Below, piece by piece: positions 7,969 through 60,529 of a stretch of 64,000 bases of DNA. The notes under the pieces were generated by a model. It was not told where the DNA came from, made no database searches, and worked only from the letters and a program-made list of their open reading frames with translations. Source of the DNA: Squalus acanthias (lineage: Eukaryota); the NCBI GenBank assembly GCA_030390025.1, contig CM059432.1, forward strand, positions 30,754,001-30,818,000. Reading direction: 5' to 3'. The stretch's first letter is position 1. Each line of letters begins with the position of its first letter. Made by a program: the position numbers and the translations under genes.

Positions 7969-9129
7969 CTAGAAGCGGCTTGCTATTAGCCGTTGACGGA
8001 CGGCCCTTGCAGTTTCACCATTGTGGGCCGCCCTCCCGCCTTGGTGCTGCTGATGATCATCCTCCTCGTCCTCTTCCTCCTCTTCCTCCTCCTCCTCTGG
8101 TGGTGCTCCAAGGCCTGGTGGCATTGGCTGGGTCCTGAGGATTGCCATGTTATGCAACATGCAGCACACAACTACGAAGTTGGATACTCGCTCAGGCGAG
8201 TACTGCAGGGCTCCTCCAGAATGGTCGAGACAGCGGAACCGTTGCTTCAGCACGCCGATTGTGCGCTCAATTATGTTCCTGGTAGCTTGATGGCTCTCAT
8301 TGTACCACAGCTCAGCAGGGGTGTTGGGCGTACGGAGCGGTGTCATCAGCCAGGTGCTCAATGCATACCCCTTGTCCCCGAGAAGCCAACCAACTGGCTG
8401 ATGCGGTGCCTCAAAAAGTTCTGCCACAGTAGTCTGGCGCAGGATAAAAGCATCGTGGCAGCTGCCAGGATAGTGGGCATTGACAGCGAGTATCAGCTGT
8501 CTGTGGTCACAGACCAACTGAACATTCAAGGAATGGAACCCCTTTCTGTTCCGGAATTCCTCGGCATTCTCATGCGGAGCACGCAAAGCCACATGCGTGC
8601 AGTCAATGGCGCCCTGCACCATGGGGAAGCCCGCTACCCTCGCAAAGCCCAGAGCGCGGTCACGCTGCTTGTCTGGGGTCATGGGGAAAGAGATGAACTC
8701 TCGTCTCCTTTTAAAGAGGACATTTGTGACCTGCCGGATGCAGCAATGCACTGCGAACTGGGAGATATTGGCGAGGTCCCCAGCAGCAGCTTGAAATGAG
8801 CCAGTAGCGTAGAAGTTGAGAGCCACTGTGACCTTCACTGCCACCGACAGAGACGTCCTGGACTTCAGTTGAGGCTGCAGATCTGGCTGCAGCAGGTGGC
8901 AGAGCTCAGTGACCACCTCCTTGCTGAATCACAGCCTTCGCAAACACAGCTCCTCAGACATATGAAGGTAGGAGAGCTGTTCACGATATACCCTGGGAGG
9001 GTAAGCTCTCCTGTACATACGCCTGTTGGCCCTCCTCCGTCTGGCCATCATTGCCACTCTCTCTCTGCGTCTCTGTGTCCTCCGATTCAGCTGGAGCAGG
9101 ACGACGCCCCCAATCAGTGCAGCCCCCAT
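7969..9129 (-). pseudogene. Harbinger DDE transposase (HARBI1-like, 386 aa) with in-frame TGA at 8929-8931
   Basis: GAIDCTHV, NRKGFHSLNVQLVCD, PGSCHDAFIL, LLGDKGY, RNIIERTIGVLKQRFRCL, CCMLHN. Confidence 0.93.
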
Positions 9130-24099: not shown

Positions 24100-24194
24100 T
24101 CACTGGAACCACCGTCGTATGAGTCGATCACAGACAGCCCGGGCAGAAAGGGGCTGTCTGGGTTGCCTCCTCCCTTCCGCTTCCTCTTCTTCTG

Positions 24195-24225
<31 letters not shown>

Positions 24226-24805
24226 CTCCTCCTCCTCCTCCTCCTCCTCAGCTGGTTGCTGTATGCCTGGTGACAAGGGCTGTGCGCTCATGATGGCGAG
24301 GTTGTAGAGCATGCAGCAGACCACGATGAATCTTGAGTACTGCAGGGCTCCTCCAGAGCGGTCCAGGCAGCAGAAGCGTTGTTTAAGGATGCCAATGCTG
24401 CTCTATCAGATTCCGTGTGGCAGCATGGCTTTCATTGTACGCATGCTGCCCACGTGTGCATGGGATGCGCAGCAGAGTCATGAGCCAGGTGGTCGGCCGA
24501 TAGCCCTTGTCACCCAGTAGCCACCCTGTGATTTGTCATGGTGGCTCAAAGACTGAGGGAACAGTGGACTGTTGCAGAATAAAAGCATTATGACTGTTGC
24601 CAGGATACTGGGCATTCACCATTATGATGTGCTGAGCATGGTCGCACACCAGCTGCACATTCAGCGAGTGGTAACCTTTGCGGTTGCAGTACATCTCAGC
24701 ATTTAGAGACGGTGCCCGCAAAGCCACGTGCATGCAGTCGATGGCGCTCTGCAGCATGGGCAAGCCCGCTATCCTGGCAGAGCCACTTGCACGTTCCGCC
24801 TGCAT
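24100..24805 (-). pseudogene. Degenerate Harbinger transposase of copy C
   Basis: SAIDCMHVALRAP, NRKGYHSLNVQLVCD, VCCMLYNLA and acidic tail; broken reading frame. Confidence 0.85.
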
Positions 24806-24958
24806 CTCCAGTTTTGAAGATGAAAATGGCAGCTTGCCCTACCGCCCTCCAGATGGTGTCCAGCGTGGCCCACACCAGTATTGCGCGCACATGGCGCGGA
24901 TGCCATTTTCGACACAAAACGGCACCTGTAGCGCCTAAAAATCAGGCGCTACAGAGCC

Positions 24959-25946
24959 TGTAAAGTTTCCAAAATTTGCAGATCCCCAAAAATCTAAGGG
25001 AAAAAAAATAAGGACTTTGGAACTTTAAAGGAACATGTCTGGACATGTACAGCACGTGGATCTACCTCTGTGAATAGTAGGCTTGAGGATTGCATTGTCT
25101 GGGAATTCAAAGCCCAGCAAACATTGACATTTGGACAATAGGTCCTGGGAGAAGGCCGCCCCACCCAAAACACAGAACCCATAGGAATGCTAGGCCCAGC
25201 AAGGAACCCAAAACATGAGAACAATGCAAATTTCCATAAAACAACAGCTCAACAGGACGCAAGCCATTTGACTCAGTAAAAGCCGTTACTGTAACGAGGT
25301 TTTTCAATTGACCAGGATTTGATTTGGTTTAGCATAGTTGAAGGCCCATCAAAATTTAACAAGACAATGAATAGGCCTCACGTGAAACCAACTCACTTCA
25401 TTACGAAACCAGTTTTCGTGAGGAGTTTTGGGGGGGGGGCGAAAAGGACTATAATTGCAGCATGACCCAAGACTTCTTTCTCTTTTGACTCGCCGACAAC
25501 GCTGGCACAACTCTCCCTCTCAGCTCTGCCCAGAAGCCGCATGGTAAAGGAAGACATTCGATGACCAGAATCACCATCAACTTACCTGACTGGATTTCGT
25601 ACTGTTAATACCCCTGTTTGGTGAGCATTATCGCTGATCTCCTGAAACCGAAACCTAGCTAGAAAGTGGGATTTTTGGGAGGGATAAAGGTTTTTCTTGT
25701 ATACTGTCATTCTCCCTCGCTTGTAACCGTGTGTTCCCCAAACCTGTTTAAGTGTGAAGTGTGTTTAAGTTTGTTACCTTTTATTTTTAATAAAAGTTAT
25801 AATTCTTTCATCAGAACCTGTTGTCTACTGCTTCTTTATTCACAACCCCTAAATAAGTCCAAGTTTTGAACCTGGGGCGTGGGAGCGATTCGAACCGCTC
25901 ACTGAGTCAGGGGAAAGGCTGACCCCTACCACCACCACCCCCTACA
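24959..25946 (+). repeat. 5' LTR
   Basis: TGTAAAG...CCTACA; ACTATAATT ~25448, AATAAA 25789; roughly 20 differences from the 3' LTR counted by eye. Confidence 0.95.
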
Positions 25947-25950
25947 AAAA

Positions 25951-25968
25951 TGGTGACCGCGGCAGGAC
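25951..25968 (+). promoter_or_regulatory. Primer-binding site, tRNA-Arg(UCG)-like
   Basis: TGGTGACCGCGGCAGGAC matches 17/18 to the complement of the vertebrate tRNA-Arg(TCG) 3' end GTCCTGCCGCGGTCGCCA (recalled sequence); the mismatch is at a CpG. Confidence 0.75.
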
Positions 25969-26020
25969 TTGGCAAAAGGGTTGTGAAGCAGTAGACACTG
26001 ATTCGGAAGAGAGAACTGTA

Positions 26021-27724
26021 ATGGAAGAGAGGATTTCAGATTATGTATTCAGCAAAGTGAATATGGAAAAGAAATGGGTCACTAATCTATTAAAAACTGG
26101 GCGCCCGGTAGATGCAGCAGCTAAATGGACAGAAGGGAAGGATCATAAAAAAATCCTTAGAAAAGGCAGTCTGGCTGATGTGCTTCAAGAAACAGATCCA
26201 ACTTTTGGACAGACTCATTGAAGAACAGGCAGCCGAGATTCGGGAGTCAGCCCTGGAAGTCCAAACAAAGGCCCTAGCAGGGGAGAAGTTACTGTTAGCA
26301 TTGCAGGCGCTAAACCAGGAAAGGGTGCAGTTAGTGGGGGAACACAAGACCCGGCAGGAATATTTACAGTGCCAGGTCACTGAGGCCAAGAACAATGAGC
26401 TGAGGTTGCGGGAAAGAATGCCCGCCTGGCAAAACAAGCAAGAGAGCAGGAGGAGACAGTAAAAGGCTTACAGGCAGCCTATAAGGTAATGAGCGCACAG
26501 GGGTTTGAGGATGCAGACCATTGCCCCTGCCAGAAGCATATAGAGAATCTCAGCCTTGCTCTAAGGAACGCAAGAGGCGTGGCGTGCCTCATAAGCCCAA
26601 GTGCAGCCCAGGTTGACTTTACAGGGAACCTGGGGAGAACGGTTCAGACACCAAAGATAGCGCCAAGGGACGACCCGGTTGAGGAGCGGGAGGGCCCACG
26701 ACCACCACCCATAGCGCCAAGCTTTAGCACAGTCTGGCAAGTAGAAGGGGTGGAGTTAGGGGTAGAAGCTGAGGTGGAAAAAACCCCCGCAAGAGAGGCT
26801 GGGACCGGGGCCGATGTGCCCGGCCCGGCAGGAAAGGTTTGGCCCACCCTCCAAAGCCAGTTTGTGGCTCGCCACGGTACACAACAGCTTAGGGTTATGG
26901 TAAGCCACCTGAGTAAACTCACCCAACAAGGGGACCCCTCAGTTCACTTCATAGAGGTAGAACAGGCCGCAGGCATCAACGACTGTGACGATGCCGAGAT
27001 GGCAAAACTGCTCCTGTTCTCACTGGATAGCCGGCTATACCAGTCTCTCTCTGCTGAGAGCAAGAGAGGACAGAATGGATATGCAGCCATCAGAGAGGAA
27101 GTTTTAGAGGCCATGGGGATGAATGAGGGCAGTCCTTTCTCCCGGGTGGAGAAAACAGTGCAGCTCGCAGGAGAGACCCCACAGGCTTTTGCAGACAGGC
27201 TGTGGCCCGTGTACAGGGGTGCTTGTGGTGGGGATCTTAACAGGGCTCACCTAAACTGGGACGAGCTGGCCCACTGGCTCCGTAGCCTAGTGGCAAACAG
27301 CTTGCCTCGGATCAAAACCCAGGCTGAGCTTTGGTTTGACCCGAAAGACCCCCAGGTCACCGAGGAGGCAGTGGTCAGACAGCTGAACCTGGCCTACCGG
27401 AACGGGAGAGGGGTGGAAGAGCCCCCACAAAAAGGGAAAGTACATGAAATAAAACCCGGCCAGAGTAGGAAGGAGTGGCATCAGGAGGGGAATAACCCTT
27501 CCAGCACAAAGCTTAACTGTTATGGGTGTGGGAAGGATGGTCACTGGAGGAAGGAGTGTAAGAATCTTTGGAAGGATAACAAGGGAAAGAATTCCTCAGC
27601 CCCAGCCCAAAAGGCAGAGACAGGGATCCCTCCCGCCACGGTCGAGTCATTTTTGGATGCCATGAGGTCCCTATTGAGTGGCCCAGGGAAGGTAGCAGCA
27701 GCCCCATACAACCCAGACCTATGA
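26021..27724 (+). pseudogene. gag: Gag-like protein (~567 aa) with two compensating frameshifts (~26150 A-run, ~26416)
   Basis: N-terminal coiled coil; capsid-like Q..GETPQAFADRL (MHR-like) segment; zinc knuckle CYGCGKDGHWRKEC. Confidence 0.85.
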
Positions 27725-28808
27725 CTGGAACCAGCGCAGCCTGCCTACCTGTGTCCCCTTGAAAGACACGCACAGGAAGAGACCTCCCGTAAGGAGGCCA
27801 GGTTAAATGAGCAGGCCTTACTGGAGGAGAACGCCCGCTTAATGGGGAAAGTAGACGGGCTAGAGGGGCAGCTTAGAGACATAAAGGCAGCCTACAGGGC
27901 AGCCAGGAGCAGGGAGTATGAGGATTTAAACCATGGGCCCTGTGAGGAAAGGATAAAAGGTCTGACCCAAGCCCTATCCAAAGCCAGAGGGATGGTTTGC
28001 TCAACAACCCCGGGGGAATTCATCACCCCGCAGTTGCAAGCCATGGTAGCAGAGTTGATCAAACTAAAACAGGATAGAAATCCTCAGCCTGCAGCAGGAC
28101 CAAATTCACAGACTGCACAAGCAGGGGTGGTGGCCTGTCTTGAGGGAGGAGTCACCCAGGCCCCTGTTCAAACCACCCCCCCCTCTCTTCTGGGACTCAG
28201 GTGGGGAGGAGGAGGAGCCTGAACCAGATAGCCCCGCCCCCGACCCAGGTTTTGAACCTGGAGGCGAAAATCCTCAGCCTGCAGCAGGAGAAAATTCACA
28301 GACTGCACAAGCAGGGGCGGTGGCCTGTCTTAGGGGAGGGGCCACCCCACCCACCATTTGGGACATTCCCCCAATCCTCTGGGATTTAGAGGAGGAGGAG
28401 CCGGAACCAGATAGCCCCGCCCCCGACCCAGGTTTTGAACCAGCACCAGGCTGTGAAGAGTCACCTGACCCTGACACAGGTTTAGAAGAGGTACAGTCTG
28501 AGGATAGAAATCCCCAGCCAGTGGCAGTGGAAGATTCACAGACCACACAACAGGGGGCAGTGGCTCGTGTTAAAGACCCACCAGCCAGAAAACCCCCACC
28601 AGCCAGAGCCCCTAGAAGGTCCCCACGAACGCCACAGCCAAAGAAACCGTGGTCACCGGCTCCCCAATTTAAAAGGGCCGCCCCTCAAACCAGGGATCGA
28701 TCTGAGGACAGAGGTTCCCAGCCAGCAGCCATAGGCTGCAAGGGACCAAAGGTACAGGACAGGGCCACACCAAAGGGAGTAGTGTGCTGCAGCCCTAACA
28801 GGGTTTAG
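27725..28808 (+). other. In-frame post-gag ORF X: diverged gag-like module plus Pro/Glu-rich repeats (frameshift in C-run ~28180); occupies the pol position
   Basis: Open in the gag frame from 27725 to 28222; similar to gag 26380-26590; no protease, RT, RNase H or integrase motifs. Confidence 0.65.
28070..28575 (+). repeat. Imperfect tandem repeats (~190-240 bp units) in ORF X
   Basis: NPQPAAG.NSQTAQAG.VACL-type unit three times; EEEEPEPDSPAPDPGFEP twice. Confidence 0.85.
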
Positions 28809-29020
28809 TCTGGCCGCTCGGAGACGGGCGGCGAATGTACAAAGCTTTTGTTGTTAAATTTTGAGATTGTTAAGTTTGGGTATTTTTAGTTAAATTTTAA
28901 GTAAGGTGGTTGGTAGTTTTAAATGTTATAGTTTCAAGCGTGTTTTGTATTGAGTCGAGGTCGCAAGACCCGACTATGCTTCACCCAAGCCAGAGAATCT
29001 ACTCGGGACCTGGCTATATG

Positions 29021-29039
29021 CTCTTGTGTCTCCTTACAG
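29021..29039 (+). promoter_or_regulatory. Candidate env splice acceptor
   Basis: ctcttgtgtctccttacAG ending 15 nt upstream of ATG 29054. Confidence 0.6.
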
Positions 29040-29053
29040 AAGGGATTGTCGAT

Positions 29054-32000
29054 ATGAAGGGGGGCATTCTCCTACTCGCTCTGATAGGAATGCGCGCTGG
29101 GAGGCGAGGTGACGTGGAGGACTCCCACATTTTTGGGTGCTCAGGAGAGAGAGCACCGGTGGTGACTGCGGATGGCAGCAAGCGAGGCGTGAAGGAGCTC
29201 GCTACCTATTCCCACGTGGGAAGATGGCCAGGGTGGCTGGGATCTAACTCCACCCGATACTCCAGTCAGACCGGGCTCACCTACGGGGAGGCCTCCCTCC
29301 CCTGTCCCAGCATACAGGTTGTAGCCACTCGGGTCGGGGTCACTGAGGGGAAACACGTGTGCCTGACTTGCAGAGGAAAGATTCCCCTGGGAAGGTGGTG
29401 GTGGCTCAGGAAGCTGAGCAGAGACATGGGGGACCATACAGCTGACTGGGAGCGACTGGGGAATGACACCCATCGGACCATTACAGGGGACCATAGGGCG
29501 GTGAGCGTGTGCTGGGACAAGTGGTGGAAATCGGAACAGGGGATTTATGTCTGCATGTGGGGGTTGCGGAAGGCCTGCCCCACGGGCATATCCATTATCT
29601 TTTCCGCAGCATGGCTGCATAAGGGGAAGGGGGTGGAATGGGATTCCCACCTACACACTTGCATAGTCCTGCCCTCTCCAGCCCCAGTCAAGGCCACTGA
29701 ACTCGTGGCACATGCCCGTAAGTCCCTGCCCACGACCCAGACAGCAAGGACACACACAGAGACATGCCCTACCACCACCAAGGGACCAGGGAATAAGAAC
29801 ATAAGAACATAAGAAATAGGAGCAGGAGTAGGCCAATCGGCCCTTCGAGCCTGCTCCGCCATTCAATAAGATCATGGCTGATCTGATCCTCACCTCAAAT
29901 CTAAAGAACACAAGAAGTAGGAGCAGGACCCGGCCACTCAGCCCCTGGGCCCGCTACGCCACCCACAGGGCCTCGACCGATCCGAACTCAGCCTCATGTC
30001 CAATTTCCTGCCCGCTCCCCGTAACCCCTAATTCCCTTTACTTCTAGGAAACTGTCTATTTCTGTTTTAAATTTATTTAATGATGTAGCTTCCACAGCTT
30101 CCTGGGGCAGCAAATTCCAAAGACCTACTACCCTCTGAGTGAAGAAGTTTCTCCTCATCTCAGTTTTGAAAGAGCAGCCCCTTATTCTAAGATTATGCCC
30201 CCTAGTTCTAGTTTCACTCATCCTTGGGAACATCCTTACCGCATCCACCCGATCAAGCCCCTTCACAATCTTATATGTTTCAATAAGATCACCTCTCATT
30301 CTTCTGAACTCCAATGAGTAGAGTCCCAATCTACTCAACCTCTCCTCGTATGTCCACCCCCTCATCCCGGGGATTAACCGAGTGAACCTTCTTTGTACTG
30401 CCTCGAGAGCAAGTATGTCTTTTCTTAAGTATGGACACCAAAACTGTATGCAGTATTCCACATGCGGTCTCACCAATACCTTATATAACTGCAGCAATAC
30501 CTCCCTGTTTTTATAATCTATCCCCCTAGCAATAAAAGCCAACATTCCGTTGGCCTTCTTGATCACCTGCTGCACCTGCATACTAACTTTTTGATTTTCT
30601 TGCACTAGGACCCCCAGATCCCTTTGTACTGCAGTACTTTCCAGTTTCTCGCCATTAAGATAATAACTTGCTCTCTGATTTTTCCTGCCAAAGTGCATAA
30701 CCTCACATTTTCCAATATTGTATTGCATCTGCCAAATCTCTGCCCACTCACCCAGCTTGTCTATATCCCCTTGTAGGTTTTTTATGTCCTCCTCACTTTC
30801 TACTTTCCCTCCCATCTTTGTATCATCTGCAAACTTTGATATGTTACACTCGGTCCCCTCCTCCAAATCGTTAATATAGATTGTAAAGAGTTGGGGACCC
30901 AGCACCGACCCCTGCGGAACACCACTGGCTACTGGTTGCCAGTCCGAGAATGAACCATTTATCCCAACTCTCTGCTTCCTGTTAGATAACCAATCCTCCA
31001 CCCATGCCAGAATATTCCCCCCAATCCAGTGATTTTTTATCTTGAGCAATAATCTTTTATGTGGCACCTTGTCGAATGCCTTCTGGAAGTCTAAATACAC
31101 TACGTCCATTGGTTCCCCTTTATCCACCCTGTACGTTATGTCCTCAAAGAACTCAAGCAAATTTGTCAGACATGATTTCCCCTTCATAAAGCCATGGTAC
31201 TAGTGCCAACCGAAAAGGTGCTATACCAGGGGGTACACTACGTGGTAGCTTCCGTGATCCTAAACCTCACGGAGGTAAACTTACCTGAGTGGTGCCCCAA
31301 AGAGACGGAACAGCTATACCAGGCCCTGTTCAGAGAAATGTTCAGGAAGTTCTACGAGTTCGATTTCACAAACGTAGACAAAGCAGAACTGTGCACTGCA
31401 CACACTGAGTATTTTAACAATACGGGGAGACAAAGGAGGGGAGCCTGGAATTATATTTTTACAGCATAAAATACAGGGTCCTCTGTCATCAACAGTCTGG
31501 ATGACATAGAATTGCAGACACAAATAAACGGTTTAAAAACACAATTGCGCAAAATCTTAATGGATGAAAATACAGTAGTGGGCTCAGAGTTACACGAGGA
31601 CCAAGCTATGACAGTCCATTTAAAAGAAATCATTGCTGAGCTGGAAAGGCACGCAAAGACAGTAAATGCACTCATACGGGAGGACAGGAATGCATCAGAC
31701 CAGGCTGCACAGAACGAGGTGTGCATACTGTACGGGGCATGGTTGCTAGGCGAGGGCCAGAGTAACCTGAAGGATTTAAAGCAAGGTTTAGTCCCCTCCT
31801 GGATCAGCAACAAGCACCTCGCAGCCCTCCACCCATTTGAGAATTCACTAAGCCCGTGTCAGCTCCGTCTAGCCTCTGAAGCCTACCCTGTACCAGTAGA
31901 TTGTGGGTGTTCCAATCACAGTATCATGGGGATAGTGGTGAGGATGCCGGTCACGGGTGGGACCGCCCGACCCGCACTGGTATACAGGGTGGAGAACATT

Positions 32001-32267
32001 GGAGTCATTCAAGGGGGTGCACACATCCGTTTCACAGCAGTCCCACCTTATGTCATGAAGTGGGAGCACGCTATGACAGGTACTGACCTCTCCGGGTGCC
32101 GGAGCCGGGGTTCACACATAATACTGTGTCCCCAGCACTTGAACGCCTATTCTAAACCACAGTGTGGGTTTAAAGCTGCGGGCGCATGACCTATAAACTG
32201 TACCATGGATGTAATGGCACAAGACCATGTTTCCCCATTTAAAGGGGAGTGTATGTTTGGGTTTTAG
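29054..32267 (+). pseudogene. env: Env-like gene: signal peptide, Ig-like domain, Thr-rich linker, F-like fusion ectodomain; split by CR1 (29793-31194), stops at 31467 and 32187, no TM
   Basis: MKGGILLLALIG leader; EGKHVCLTC..W.W..EQGIYVC; RQRR at 31428-31439 followed by GAWNYIFTA; heptad region; GIVVRMP and DLSGC....HIILCP Cys pattern. Confidence 0.8.
29793..31194 (-). mobile_element. Young 5'-truncated CR1 LINE inserted in env
   Basis: Uninterrupted 397-aa RT C-terminal ORF (29994-31187), KFADD, (ataagaac)n tail. Confidence 0.95.
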
Positions 32268-32350
32268 TTTAGGTATTACAGGGGAAGGTTGGTTTTCGGG
32301 GATCAGGAATTTTGTCCACCCAGGACGATATTGTAGTGAACTGGAAGTAT

Positions 32351-32362
32351 CGCAGGAGGGAC
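32351..32362 (+). promoter_or_regulatory. Polypurine tract
   Basis: cgcAGGAGGGAc directly before the 3' LTR. Confidence 0.6.
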
Positions 32363-33349
32363 TGTAAAGTTTCCAAAATTTGCAGATCCCCAAAAATCTA
32401 AGGGAAAAAAATAAGGACTTTGGAACTTTAAAGGAACATGTCTGGACATGTACAGTACGTGGATCTACCTCTGTGAATAGTAGGCTTGAGGATTGCATTG
32501 TCTGGGAATTCAAAGCCCAGCAAACATTAACATTTGGACAATAGGCCCTGGGAGAAGGCCGCCCCACCCAAAACACAGAACCCATAGGAATGCTAGGCCC
32601 AGCAAGGAACCCAAAACATGAGAACAATGCAAATTTCCATAAAACAACAGCTCAACAGGACGCAAGCCATTTGATTCAGTAAAAGCCGTTACTGTAACGA
32701 GGTTTGTCAATTGAACAGGATTTGATTTTGTTTAGCATAGTTGAAGGCCCATCAAAATTTAACAAGAGAATGAATAGGCCTCATGTGAAACATACTCACT
32801 TCATTACGAAACCAGTTTTCGTGAGGAGTTTTGGGGGGGGGGCGAAAAGGACTATAATTGCAGCATGACCCAAGACTTCTTTCTCTTTTGACTCGCCGAC
32901 AACGCTGGCACAACTCTCCCTCTCAGCTCTGCCCAGAAGCTGCATGGTAAAGGAAGACATTCGATGTCCAGAATCACCATCAACTTACCTGACTGGATTT
33001 CGTACTGTTAATACCCCTGTTTGGTGAGCATTATCGCTGATCTCCTGAAACTGAAACCTAGCTAGAAAGTGGGATTTTTGGGAGGGATAAAGGTTTTTCT
33101 TGTATACTGTCATTCTCCCTCGCCTGTAACCGTATGTTCCCCAAACCTGTTTAAGTGTGAAGTGTGTTTAAGTTTGTTACCTTTTATTTTTAATAAAAGT
33201 TATAATTCTTTCATCGGAACCTGTTGTCTACTGCATCTTTATTCACAACCCCTAAATAAGTCCAAGTTTTGAACCTGGGGCGTGGGAGCGATTGGAACCG
33301 CTCACTGAGTCAGGGGAAAGGCTGACCCCTACCACCACCACCCCCTACA
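32363..33349 (+). repeat. 3' LTR
   Basis: Direct repeat of 24959-25946. Confidence 0.95.
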
Positions 33350-59368: not shown

Positions 59369-60529
59369 CTAGAAGCGGCTTGCTATTAGTCGTTGACGGA
59401 CGGCCCTTGCAGTTTGACCATTGTGGGCCGCCCTCCTGCCTTGGTGCTGCTGCTGATCATCGTCCTCGGCCTGTTCCTCCTCTTCCTCCTCCTCCTCTTG
59501 TGGTGCTGCAAGGCCTGGTGGCATTGGCTGCGTCCTGAGGATTGCCATGTTGTGCAACATGCAGCACACCACTACGAATTTGGAAACTTGCTCAGGCGAG
59601 TACTGCAGGGCTCCTCCGGAATGGTCCAGACAGCGGAATCATTGTTTGAGCACGCCGATTGTGCGCTCAATAATGTTCCTCGTTGCTTGTTGGCTTTCCT
59701 GGTACCGCAGCTCAGCAGGGGTGTTTGGCGCACGGAGCGGTGTCATCAGCCAGGTGCTCAATGCGTACCCCTTGTCCCCCAGAAGCCAACCAACTGGCTG
59801 ATGCGGTGCCTCGAAAATTTCTGCCACAGTACTCTGGCGCAGGATGAAAGCATCGTGGCAGCTGCCCGGATAGTGGGCATTGACAGCGAGAATCACCTGT
59901 CTGTGGTCACAGACCAACTGCACATTCAAGGAATGGAACCCCTTTCTGTTCCGGAACTCCTCTGCATTCTCTCGCGGAGCACGCAAAGCCACATGCGTGC
60001 AGTCAATGGCGCCCTGCACCATGGGGAAGCCCGCTACCCTCGCAAAGCCCATAGCACGGTCATGCTGCTTGTCTGGGGTCATAGGGAAGGAGATGAAGTC
60101 TCGTCTCCTTGTGAAGAGGGCATTGGTGACCTGCCGGATGCAGCGATGCACCGCAAACTGGGAGATATTGGCGAGGTCCCCAACAGCAGCTTGGAATGAG
60201 CCAGTGGCGTAGAAGTTCAAAGCCACTGTGACCTTCACTGCCACCGACAGAGACGTCCTGGACCTCAGCTGAGGCTGCAGATCTGGCTGCAGCAGGTGGC
60301 AGAGCTCAGTGACCACCTCCTTGCTGAATCGCAGCCTTCGCAAACACAGCTCCTCGGACATGTGGATGTAGGAGAGCTGTTCACGATATACCCTGGGAGG
60401 GTAAGCTCTCCTGTACATGCGCCTGATGGCCCTCCTCCGTCTGGCCATCATTGCCACTCTCTGTCTGCATCTCACTCTCCTCCGATTGAGCTGGAGCAGG
60501 ACGACGCCCCCAATCATTGCAGCCCCCAT
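59369..60529 (-). pseudogene. Harbinger DDE transposase with in-frame TGA at 59639-59641
   Basis: Same motifs and length (1161 nt) as copy 1; the stop replaces R in KQRFRC. Confidence 0.93.

What the first reader, a model, noticed from the sequence alone, without database searches (positions are those of the whole stretch)
27722..28808. Gag UGA is followed in frame by a diverged second Gag module and repeats instead of Pol
Seen: TGA-CTG then 165 open codons. EARLNEQALLEENARL..IKAAYRA..EDLNHGPCEERIKGLTQALSKARGMVC parallels the repaired gag segment EAKNNELRLREENARL..LQAAYKV..EDADHCPCQKHIENLSLALRNARGVAC, and TPQLQAMVAELIKL parallels TQQLRVMVSHLSKL. Pro/Glu-rich repeats follow. The divergence is too high for a recent tandem duplication. 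Established: UGA-C contexts are leaky and some retroviruses express pol by readthrough. Inference: the readthrough slot was reassigned to a Gag-X fusion that could co-assemble with or interfere with helper particles.
Basis: partly seen in the sequence, partly recalled or inferred. Interest (0 to 1): 0.72.

Follow-up and report, generated by a model that had tools for sequence, protein, structure and literature searches.

The report
Chimeric pol-slot ORF in satellite provirus
In a dead copy of a helper-dependent endogenous retrovirus of a shark-like fish, the enzyme gene behind the gag stop codon has been replaced by a patchwork reading frame carrying a coiled-coil piece probably taken from a different gag family; related copies seem to keep this frame open, so it may be made as a read-through extension of Gag.

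Summary
An 8.4-kb LTR element (LTRs 98% alike, 4-bp target duplication) has gag, env and no pol. The native gag TGA is followed in frame by 165 codons. They match the Gag coiled-coil/HxxC module (z 16.7) and first capsid helix; repeats continue in another frame after a break near 28176. It is not a second Gag: the linker is cut and the capsid body is absent. The module is 35% identical to this element's own gag, and contigs in 3 of 4 runs suggest a sister gag family as donor. This copy is dead (gag, ORF X and env broken). In other copies, 4 of 4 listed length variants in ORF X keep frame, against 0 of 4 in the spacer, and the older repeat pair shows dN/dS 0.20. Readthrough is inferred, not shown: no suitable ATG, but no stimulatory RNA structure and a non-canonical UGA-CUG context. 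Best reading: a helper-dependent lineage making a Gag-X fusion like mouse IAP 1Δ1. The scan noted a similar pol-less ORF X elsewhere in this genome (e1-7807165, e1-8036056); the foreign-gag origin is new here. Co-assembly or interference is untested.

The parts
24959..25946 (+). 5' LTR (TG...CA), preceded by a 4-bp target-site duplication
   Evidence: 968 matches, 19 mismatches, 1 gap column against the 3' LTR; AGCC on both flanks
25951..25968 (+). primer-binding site; tRNA-Arg type is recalled and follows a lead from e1-7806816, not tested here
   Evidence: sequence directly; no tRNA gene in the window to compare
26021..27724 (+). gag: N-terminal coiled coil, HxxC module, capsid, one CCHC knuckle. 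Broken in this copy near 26147 and 26412 (early stop 26219-26221); two further length differences near 26784 and 26849 offset each other
   Evidence: (zf-CCHC E 0.0016, below Pfam cut-off); the skate relative P0002 scores retrotransposon-gag clusters
27722..27727 (+). native gag stop with 3' CTG (UGA-C context); candidate readthrough site
   Evidence: differing gag 3' ends join here in codon phase in X6 (3 contigs) and X11 (2 and 1 contigs)
27725..27758 (+). first ~11 codons of ORF X; probable remnant of the pol start (inferred)
   Evidence: one X11 contig leaves the element at 27758 and goes on in frame with other sequence; 18 letters, one contig, weak
27785..28012 (+). Gag-derived coiled-coil plus HxxC...C module
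   Evidence: 35% to own gag; 44, 34, 46, 44% to P0001, P0002, P0004, P0005; model with helices 11-62 and 71-94, mean pLDDT 78
28019..28074 (+). first capsid helix of a probable sister gag family; the ~90-residue gag linker before it is missing
   Evidence: contigs of X1, X6 and X8 run from 28074 into capsid DNA at 26930-26935, in frame for the X1/X8 joint; an X6 loose end before 28018 reads in frame like the pre-capsid motif of P0001/P0002
28078..28577 (+). three acidic Pro/Glu-rich repeat units (starts 28078, 28268, 28508); frame break of this copy near 28176
   Evidence: length difference at 28176 listed in X6, X8 and X11 but not in X1
28578..28808 (+). basic Pro-rich tail ending at TAG; probably the former pol/integrase tail (inferred from position, a recalled RRSxR-type motif and earlier notes; not shown here)
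   Evidence: charge profile; no homologue found
29054..29793 (+). env 5' part: signal-peptide-like start, weak Ig-like domain, Thr-rich stalk
   Evidence: Ig_3 E 0.043, below cut-off; P0003 and P0005 match
29794..31196 (-). 5'-truncated LINE inserted into env
   Evidence: RVT_1 E 6.6e-21; other copies in the window
31197..32189 (+). env 3' part with an RQRR motif and an in-frame stop at 31467-31469; truncated
   Evidence: no family hit
32363..33349 (+). 3' LTR, followed by the target-site duplication

Best explanation
This is a dead copy of a multi-copy, helper-dependent, env-bearing endogenous retrovirus lineage of a cartilaginous fish. In its ancestor, pol followed the gag stop in frame and was made by readthrough (inferred). 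Template switching during reverse transcription (inferred) removed the enzymes and left a chimeric frame of about 360 codons: the first ~11 codons of pol (inferred), a coiled-coil/HxxC module and first capsid helix (shown to be Gag-derived; probably from a sister gag family), and an acidic repeat plus basic tail, probably the old pol end (inferred). The lineage has kept this frame open through later duplications and deletions (shown in a small sample). The simplest way to translate all of it is low-level readthrough of the UGA, giving a minor Gag-X fusion. The most likely benefit is in cis, as for mouse IAP 1Δ1: the fusion or the act of translating it favours the element's own RNA, through stability against nonsense-mediated decay or preferential entry into helper-made particles.
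For: No pol, yet intact termini, a target duplication and LTRs 98% alike, so it was integrated by enzymes supplied in trans or lost them later; the same layout from 25950 to 29800 is covered in all 30 bins in 4 of 4 runs from three organism labels. The stop is the native gag end, and other gag 3' ends join at it in phase. Length variants listed in other copies, with the break sites of this copy left out: 4 of 4 in ORF X keep frame, 0 of 4 in the non-coding spacer do (one-sided p 0.014). Repeat units 2 vs 3 give dN/dS 0.20 (p 0.006) and 1 vs 3 give 0.31 (p 0.056) in the ORF frame, against 0.53-2.69 in the off-frames. The first in-frame ATG is codon 40, inside the homologous module, and my acceptor pattern found nothing between 27401 and 28081. 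SnRV, SSSV and ZFERV are described as having in-frame gag stops, two of them UGA (passages of PMC13517186). IAP 1Δ1 fusion acts in cis (passage of PMC6466679). Readthrough protects against NMD, depending on downstream ORF length (passages of PMC5360307).
Against: No readthrough, RNA or protein data. UGA-CUG is not the consensus UGA-CUA/CGG, and no stimulatory structure was found. For 2 of the 4 in-frame events the letters between are not known; with the 2 known ones only, p is 0.067. The tables are cut (3 indel rows, 217 substitution rows and 219 loose ends not shown). Changes in repeat number keep frame by construction. X1 does not list the difference at 28176, so that break may be shared by some copies. 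The youngest repeat pair shows no constraint (dN/dS about 1.6 on 6 differences), and the constraint on the older pair may date from the pol tail. No pol-bearing relative was retrieved, so the pol origin of both ends is unproven here. The AU test does not reject ORF X plus own gag as one clade (p 0.093).
Confidence: 0.5

Rival explanations
1. Neutral recombination scar: ORF X is open only because it was joined from coding pieces in phase and the lineage is young. It is not translated to any effect; the lineage spreads through its cis signals and its gag and env.
For: No readthrough structure; no constraint in the youngest repeat pair; changes in repeat number keep frame trivially; the older dN/dS could be inherited from pol; defective elements without functional genes outcompete helpers in cattle (passages of PMC10924933).
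Against: Several junctions (pol start to module, module to helix, helix to repeats) are all in phase; the 69-, 138- and 3-base variants are not repeat-unit changes and keep frame; contigs do show frame-breaking variants in gag (2 of 2 listed with known length) and in the spacer (4 of 4).
Confidence: 0.25
2. Adaptor or interference: readthrough hangs a coiled coil of helper-type Gag on the element's own Gag. The fusion can then pair with the helper's Gag or Gag-Pol, pulling the enzymes into its particles or poisoning the helper's assembly.
For: The captured piece is an oligomerisation-type helix pair that keeps the residues invariant among five other gag modules. It appears to come from a co-resident gag family, and one sub-lineage duplicated the coiled coil in frame (joint 27877 to 27809 in X1 and X6). 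Gag fragments can be trans-dominant (abstract of PMC4599808).
Against: Retention of conserved residues is expected from a recent capture. A variant in X8 and X11 skips 138 bases that include the HxxC motif and most of the capsid helix, so that part is dispensable in some copies. The donor family is not shown to be the helper.
Confidence: 0.15
3. ORF X is a decayed form of a complete second gag (gag-stop-gag), or a separate accessory gene expressed from a spliced or internal transcript, not by readthrough.
For: The contigs that run from the ORF X helix into capsid DNA could come from a full second gag rather than from a donor family's first gag. Fish foamy-like ERVs carry ORFs under purifying selection between pol and env (passages of PMC5210030).
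Against: No suitable start codon or acceptor-like site upstream; the frame is continuous with gag across the stop; there is no pol between gag and ORF X; no gag-length-plus protein was found (weak).
Confidence: 0.1

Closest known systems
Mouse IAP 1Δ1 (passage of PMC6466679)
   Same: Non-autonomous ERV subtype whose internal deletion leaves a new fusion ORF; needs Gag and Pol in trans; the fusion acts in cis to favour its own retrotransposition.
   Different: 1Δ1 deletes part of gag and pol and fuses them directly. Here gag is full length, the stop is kept, env is kept, and the pol slot holds an inserted piece probably of another gag family.
Readthrough-type fish retroviruses: SnRV, SSSV, ZFERV, WDSV (passages of PMC13517186)
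   Same: In-frame stop after the Gag zinc knuckle; UGA in SSSV and ZFERV. [quoted passage not shown]
   Different: There the downstream frame is pro-pol; their contexts (UAG-GGC, UGA-AGA, UGA-CGA, UAG-GAU) differ from UGA-CUG. Kinship could not be tested without RT.
Lokiretroviruses and zebrafish BHIKHARI (PMC7947760 parts 1-2 and supplement passages; bioRxiv 2024.03.25.586437 passages)
   Same: Gag with an N-terminal coiled coil before the capsid; RxxR-cleaved env; pol-less Gag-coding families (Bik-2) exist.
   Different: Bik-2 has neither pol nor env, and no second gag-derived ORF is mentioned in the passages read; the paper's table lists 0 of 3 genomes in the one Chondrichthyes row I saw; earlier notes of this scan place similar shark elements nearer SnRV.
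Defective parasite-of-parasite ERVs, bovine ERVK[2-1-LTR] D-type (passages of PMC10924933), and Ty1 p22 (abstract of PMC4599808)
   Same: Defective elements mobilised by helpers; a Gag fragment that acts on particle assembly.
   Different: D-type elements have no intact ORFs; p22 is the C-terminal half of the element's own Gag from an internal transcript, not a foreign N-terminal module behind the stop.

Membership tests
LTR retroelement / endogenous retrovirus | Two LTRs with TG...CA ends and a short target-site duplication | tested here: met
LTR retroelement / endogenous retrovirus | Gag with capsid and nucleocapsid | tested here: met
   CCHC knuckle E 0.0016, below cut-off; relative P0002 has PF00098 and scores 0.91 to retrotransposon-gag clusters; my own single-sequence capsid model was unusable
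Non-autonomous (helper-dependent) ERV | No protease, RT, RNase H or integrase | tested here: met
   the only RT is the inserted LINE
Non-autonomous (helper-dependent) ERV | Pol-less form multiplied as such | tested here: inconclusive
   ORF X region covered in 4 of 4 runs from three organism labels, with structural variants; no contig spans the whole stretch and no copy number could be measured; earlier notes claim over 1000 copies for a similar family, not checked
Non-autonomous (helper-dependent) ERV | A pol-bearing helper with the same LTR and PBS exists | not testable with these tools
   no genome held; searches for a pol-bearing relative empty
IAP 1Δ1-like fusion element | Deletion leaves an open fusion frame that the lineage keeps | tested here: inconclusive
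   4 of 4 listed variants in frame against 0 of 4 in the spacer; small and cut tables
IAP 1Δ1-like fusion element | Fusion protein acts in cis on mobilisation | not testable with these tools
   needs experiment
Type II readthrough site (UGA-CUA / UGA-CGG with 3' stem-loop) | Consensus triplet after UGA | tested here: not met
   UGA-CUG against the consensus in passages of PMC3159437; +4 C is present
Type II readthrough site (UGA-CUA / UGA-CGG with 3' stem-loop) | Stable 3' RNA structure | tested here: not met
   z 0.4 to -0.9 in 5 of 5 windows; 1 of 15 windows below -2, as 1 of 18 controls; 0 pseudoknot candidates; one decayed copy only
Complete second Gag | Capsid body and nucleocapsid after the coiled coil | tested here: not met
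   only the first capsid helix is present; linker cut
Lokiretrovirus or SnRV-like clade | Position in an RT tree; dual RNase H | not testable with these tools
   the element has no pol and no helper was retrieved
Lokiretrovirus or SnRV-like clade | Env related to paramyxovirus F (PF00523) | tested here: inconclusive
   no hit for the env pieces in Pfam, PDB or the Atlas; RQRR motif seen in the sequence; F-likeness of similar elements is claimed in earlier notes only

The most novel reading that the evidence does not exclude
A satellite retrovirus has turned its gag readthrough slot into an adaptor: a small share of its Gag carries the coiled coil of the helper family's Gag, which lets an element with an otherwise incompatible Gag co-assemble with, and take the enzymes from, a heterologous helper.
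Probability: 0.13. Interest if true: 0.75.

Novelty: new variant of a known kind. Interest (0 to 1): 0.42.

Why it matters
Pol-less endogenous retroviruses are common, and fusion ORFs that act in cis are known from mouse IAP. What is unusual here is that the stop codon and the frame behind it were kept and filled with part of what is probably another family's Gag. If readthrough and selection are confirmed, this is a case of a recoding site being reused for a non-enzymatic extension, and a natural test of how defective elements gain an edge in helper-made particles. It would also give a UGA-CUG readthrough site from a deep fish-retrovirus lineage, a group where readthrough is described mostly from sequence alone.

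Tried and rejected
No whole genome is held, and the cluster-member look-up could not be made, so copy number and full-length relatives were not seen. Searches for a Gag-Pol, Gag-X or pol-tail relative were empty: gag, longer proteins; ORF X tail, longer proteins; gag in viral and metagenome contigs; junction pattern. These blanks are weak. The all-representatives search with the ORF X N-terminus gave 5 hits: three are gag-type modules (P0001, P0004, P0005) and two (P0006, P0007) I set aside as low-complexity or chance. No RNA holder was listed, and X11 is RNA by guess only, so nothing is said on expression. Contig depth peaks just after the stop and over the capsid, but depth cannot rank parts of a gene and was not used. 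The substitution rows shown are mostly changes private to this copy (7 of 8 non-synonymous in ORF X, 11 of 17 in gag); they reflect decay after insertion and say nothing on selection in the lineage. The unit 1 vs 2 value was misregistered by one codon and was redone. The single-sequence capsid model (pLDDT 43) was unusable; the fold search with the ORF X model gave 0 matches at E 0.001. A check whether a lokiretrovirus consensus has the same stop context found nothing in the supplement text (the file is cut and has line breaks). Rejected: recent tandem duplication of own gag (dS about 1.0, mismatches even over the three codon positions); a nonsense mutation splitting a longer gag; a complete second Gag in this copy. 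Paper searches for a published gag-derived ORF behind a readthrough stop listed none by title or abstract start. The library lacks most subscription papers, bioRxiv supplements are closed, and figure S2 of PMC7947760 is not held.
Full report
Setting. The finding lies inside an LTR element at 24959-33349. Its LTRs differ at 19 positions plus one gap column over about 988 bases, and a 4-bp target duplication flanks it. The order is LTR, PBS, gag, ORF X, a U-rich spacer, env interrupted by a LINE (RVT_1 E 6.6e-21), LTR. There is no pol: Pfam finds none in the eight ORFs scanned apart from the LINE, and a motif scan of the three + frames of 25950-32360 finds no protease or RT motif. The gag has 3 relatives among 7997 candidates scored, one named from the skate Rhinoraja longicauda at 40% identity, so the host is probably a cartilaginous fish. 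No whole genome is held.

The observation. TGA at 27722-27724 is followed by CTG and 165 open codons in the gag frame; 7 of 5000 shuffles are that open. The match to the gag coiled-coil/HxxC module is beyond chance (22/62, E 5e-12; score 119 against at most 50 in 300 shuffles). So is the capsid-helix match (0 of 60 shuffles against each of three gags). A model built on a 6-row alignment shows helices 11-62, 71-94 and 102-117, mean pLDDT 78. Three corrections matter. ORF X is in two frames in this copy, with a break near 28176. It is a Gag fragment: the distance from HxxC to the capsid helix is 33 residues against 118-128 in three gags, and only that first helix is present. And this copy is dead: gag is broken near 26147 and 26412 and stops at 26219-26221, and env has a LINE and a stop.

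Other copies. Twenty runs from 8 studies hold part of 26000-29800, with shares of words up to 0.39. I laid 4 of them (X1, X6, X8, X11; three organism labels; all contigs) at 85% likeness, and all 30 bins were covered in each. Length differences are listed at the window's break sites: 26147 in 4 of 4 runs (a minority of depth in X1), 26412 in 3 of 3 runs that cover it, 26778-26784 in 4 of 4, and 28176 in 3 of 4 (not X1). Most of the damage is therefore private to this copy, though the ORF X break may be shared by some. Leaving those sites out, four length variants fall in ORF X: a 69-base duplication in the coiled coil (X1, X6), a 138-base skip and a one-repeat-shorter form (X8, X11), and a 3-base difference at 28762 (4 of 4 runs). 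All four keep the reading phase on either side. In the non-coding spacer 0 of 4 listed variants are multiples of three, and two frame-breaking variants are listed in gag (one-sided p 0.014 for ORF X against spacer; 0.067 using only the two ORF X events whose intervening letters are known). The tables are cut, so this is suggestive, not settled.

Where the Gag piece came from. Over the 62-residue module, ORF X is 35% identical to this element's gag and 44, 34, 46 and 44% to P0001, P0002, P0004 and P0005; own gag is 53% identical to P0001. Synonymous distance to own gag is about 1.0. A six-row tree joins ORF X with P0004 at 83/82, not a starred branch, and does not reject ORF X plus own gag (AU p 0.093). 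Better evidence is in the contigs. In X1, X6 and X8, sequence like the ORF X helix runs on into capsid DNA at 26930-26935, in frame for the X1/X8 joint, with 20 and 37 letters on the shorter side. In X6 a 77-base loose end before 28018 reads, in phase, like the pre-capsid motif of P0001 and P0002. A gag family that carries this helix in its normal setting thus seems to exist in these genomes. The module is better seen as a capture from a sister family than as a long-diverged duplicate, which weakens conservation of its residues as evidence of function. I cannot exclude that these contigs come from a full second gag.

The stop and the ends. The TGA is the natural end of gag: it lies 61 residues after the knuckle motif, against 75 and 65 in P0001 and P0002. 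Contigs with different gag 3' ends join at 27721 (X6, 3 contigs), 27710 (X11, 2) and 27701 (X11, 1), at codon boundaries. None of the 40 substitution rows shown, of 257, touches 27722-27725. One X11 contig leaves the element at 27758, eleven codons after the stop, and continues in frame. This would fit a pol-bearing relative, but it is 18 letters of one contig. The basic tail has an RRSxR-type stretch that I recall from integrase tails. Two earlier notes on other pieces of this genome (e1-7807165, e1-8036056) say that a similar ORF X ends in the pol tail. I could not test this: searches for a pol-bearing relative were empty. Sequence look-ups did not link those notes to this window, so they may concern a sister lineage.

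Selection inside the repeats. Units 2 and 3 differ at 8 synonymous and 7 non-synonymous sites over 20 codons (dN/dS 0.20, p 0.006); units 1 and 3 give 0.31 (p 0.056); off-frames give 0.53-2.69. Units 1 and 2, the young pair, differ at 1 synonymous and 5 non-synonymous sites over 39 codons, with no sign of constraint. The frame was translated under selection at some time, possibly while it was still pol.

Is it read through? The first in-frame ATG is codon 40, inside the homologous module, and my acceptor pattern found no site before 28081. Readthrough is thus the simplest route to the whole frame. In-frame gag stops, two of them UGA, are described for fish retroviruses (passages of PMC13517186). 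Against this, UGA-CUG is not the UGA-CUA/CGG consensus (passages of PMC3159437), folding 3' of the stop is no more stable than shuffles, and no pseudoknot candidate was found. Readthrough is inferred only.

Mechanism. I put 0.5 on a helper-dependent lineage whose chimeric frame is kept open and made as a minor Gag-X fusion acting in cis. Known parallels are the IAP 1Δ1 fusion (passage of PMC6466679) and protection from nonsense-mediated decay by readthrough into a long ORF (passages of PMC5360307). I put 0.25 on a neutral scar, 0.15 on an adaptor or interference role, and 0.1 on a decayed second gag or separate accessory gene. One result counts against the adaptor idea: the 138-base skip in X8 and X11 removes the HxxC motif and most of the helix. 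Binding could not be modelled.

What is known. Papers seen: PMC7947760 (parts 1-2 of 4 and supplement passages); passages of bioRxiv 2023.10.26.564294, 2024.03.25.586437, 2021.11.23.469661, PMC6466679, PMC5210030, PMC10435555, PMC13517186, PMC3159437, PMC10924933, PMC5360307; abstracts of PMC12440569 and PMC4599808. Ten searches listed no paper on a gag-derived ORF behind a retained readthrough stop; the library is incomplete. Family membership (lokiretrovirus or SnRV-like) cannot be tested without RT, and my env searches gave no F-protein hit.

Verdict. A real and somewhat unusual feature, a new variant of a known kind (defective ERV with a fusion ORF). The scan has already noted something similar in this genome. 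Interest 0.42; 0.75 if the adaptor reading (probability about 0.13) proved true.

Noticed in passing
window 26399-27724, near 26784 and 26849: The long gag ORF appears to stay open only because two length differences offset each other; about 22 codons between them match relatives poorly in this frame.
   Followed up: partly
   Followed up: no
window 28820-28960: A purine-rich run followed by TGT lies just after the ORF X stop and resembles a polypurine tract; a U-rich non-coding spacer follows, where an env splice acceptor might lie.
   Followed up: no
window 29054-29793: The env 5' part has a weak Ig-like hit (Ig_3 E 0.043) before a Thr-rich stalk; several earlier notes describe this layout in the same genome.
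   Followed up: partly
window 29794-31196: A 5'-truncated LINE with a short tandem-repeat tail is inserted antisense in env; no clear target duplication was found.
   Followed up: partly
protein P0005 (matches window 27809-28015 or 26414-26635, and 29039-29335): A gag-type coiled-coil module is joined directly to the env leader in one predicted protein: a further deleted element or a gene-model artefact.
   Followed up: no
window 24100-24840; also 8365-8649 and 59766-60061: The element inserted next to minus-strand ORF fragments that look like a Harbinger-type transposase (recalled from the translation, not searched); related stretches occur twice more in the window.
   Followed up: no
window 27740-27760 and gag near 26810: The motif just after the stop (hydrophobic residues, then Cys-Pro-Leu) resembles the pre-capsid motifs of P0001 and P0002 and recalled aromatic-Pro protease sites, so a helper protease might cut ORF X off Gag.
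   Followed up: no
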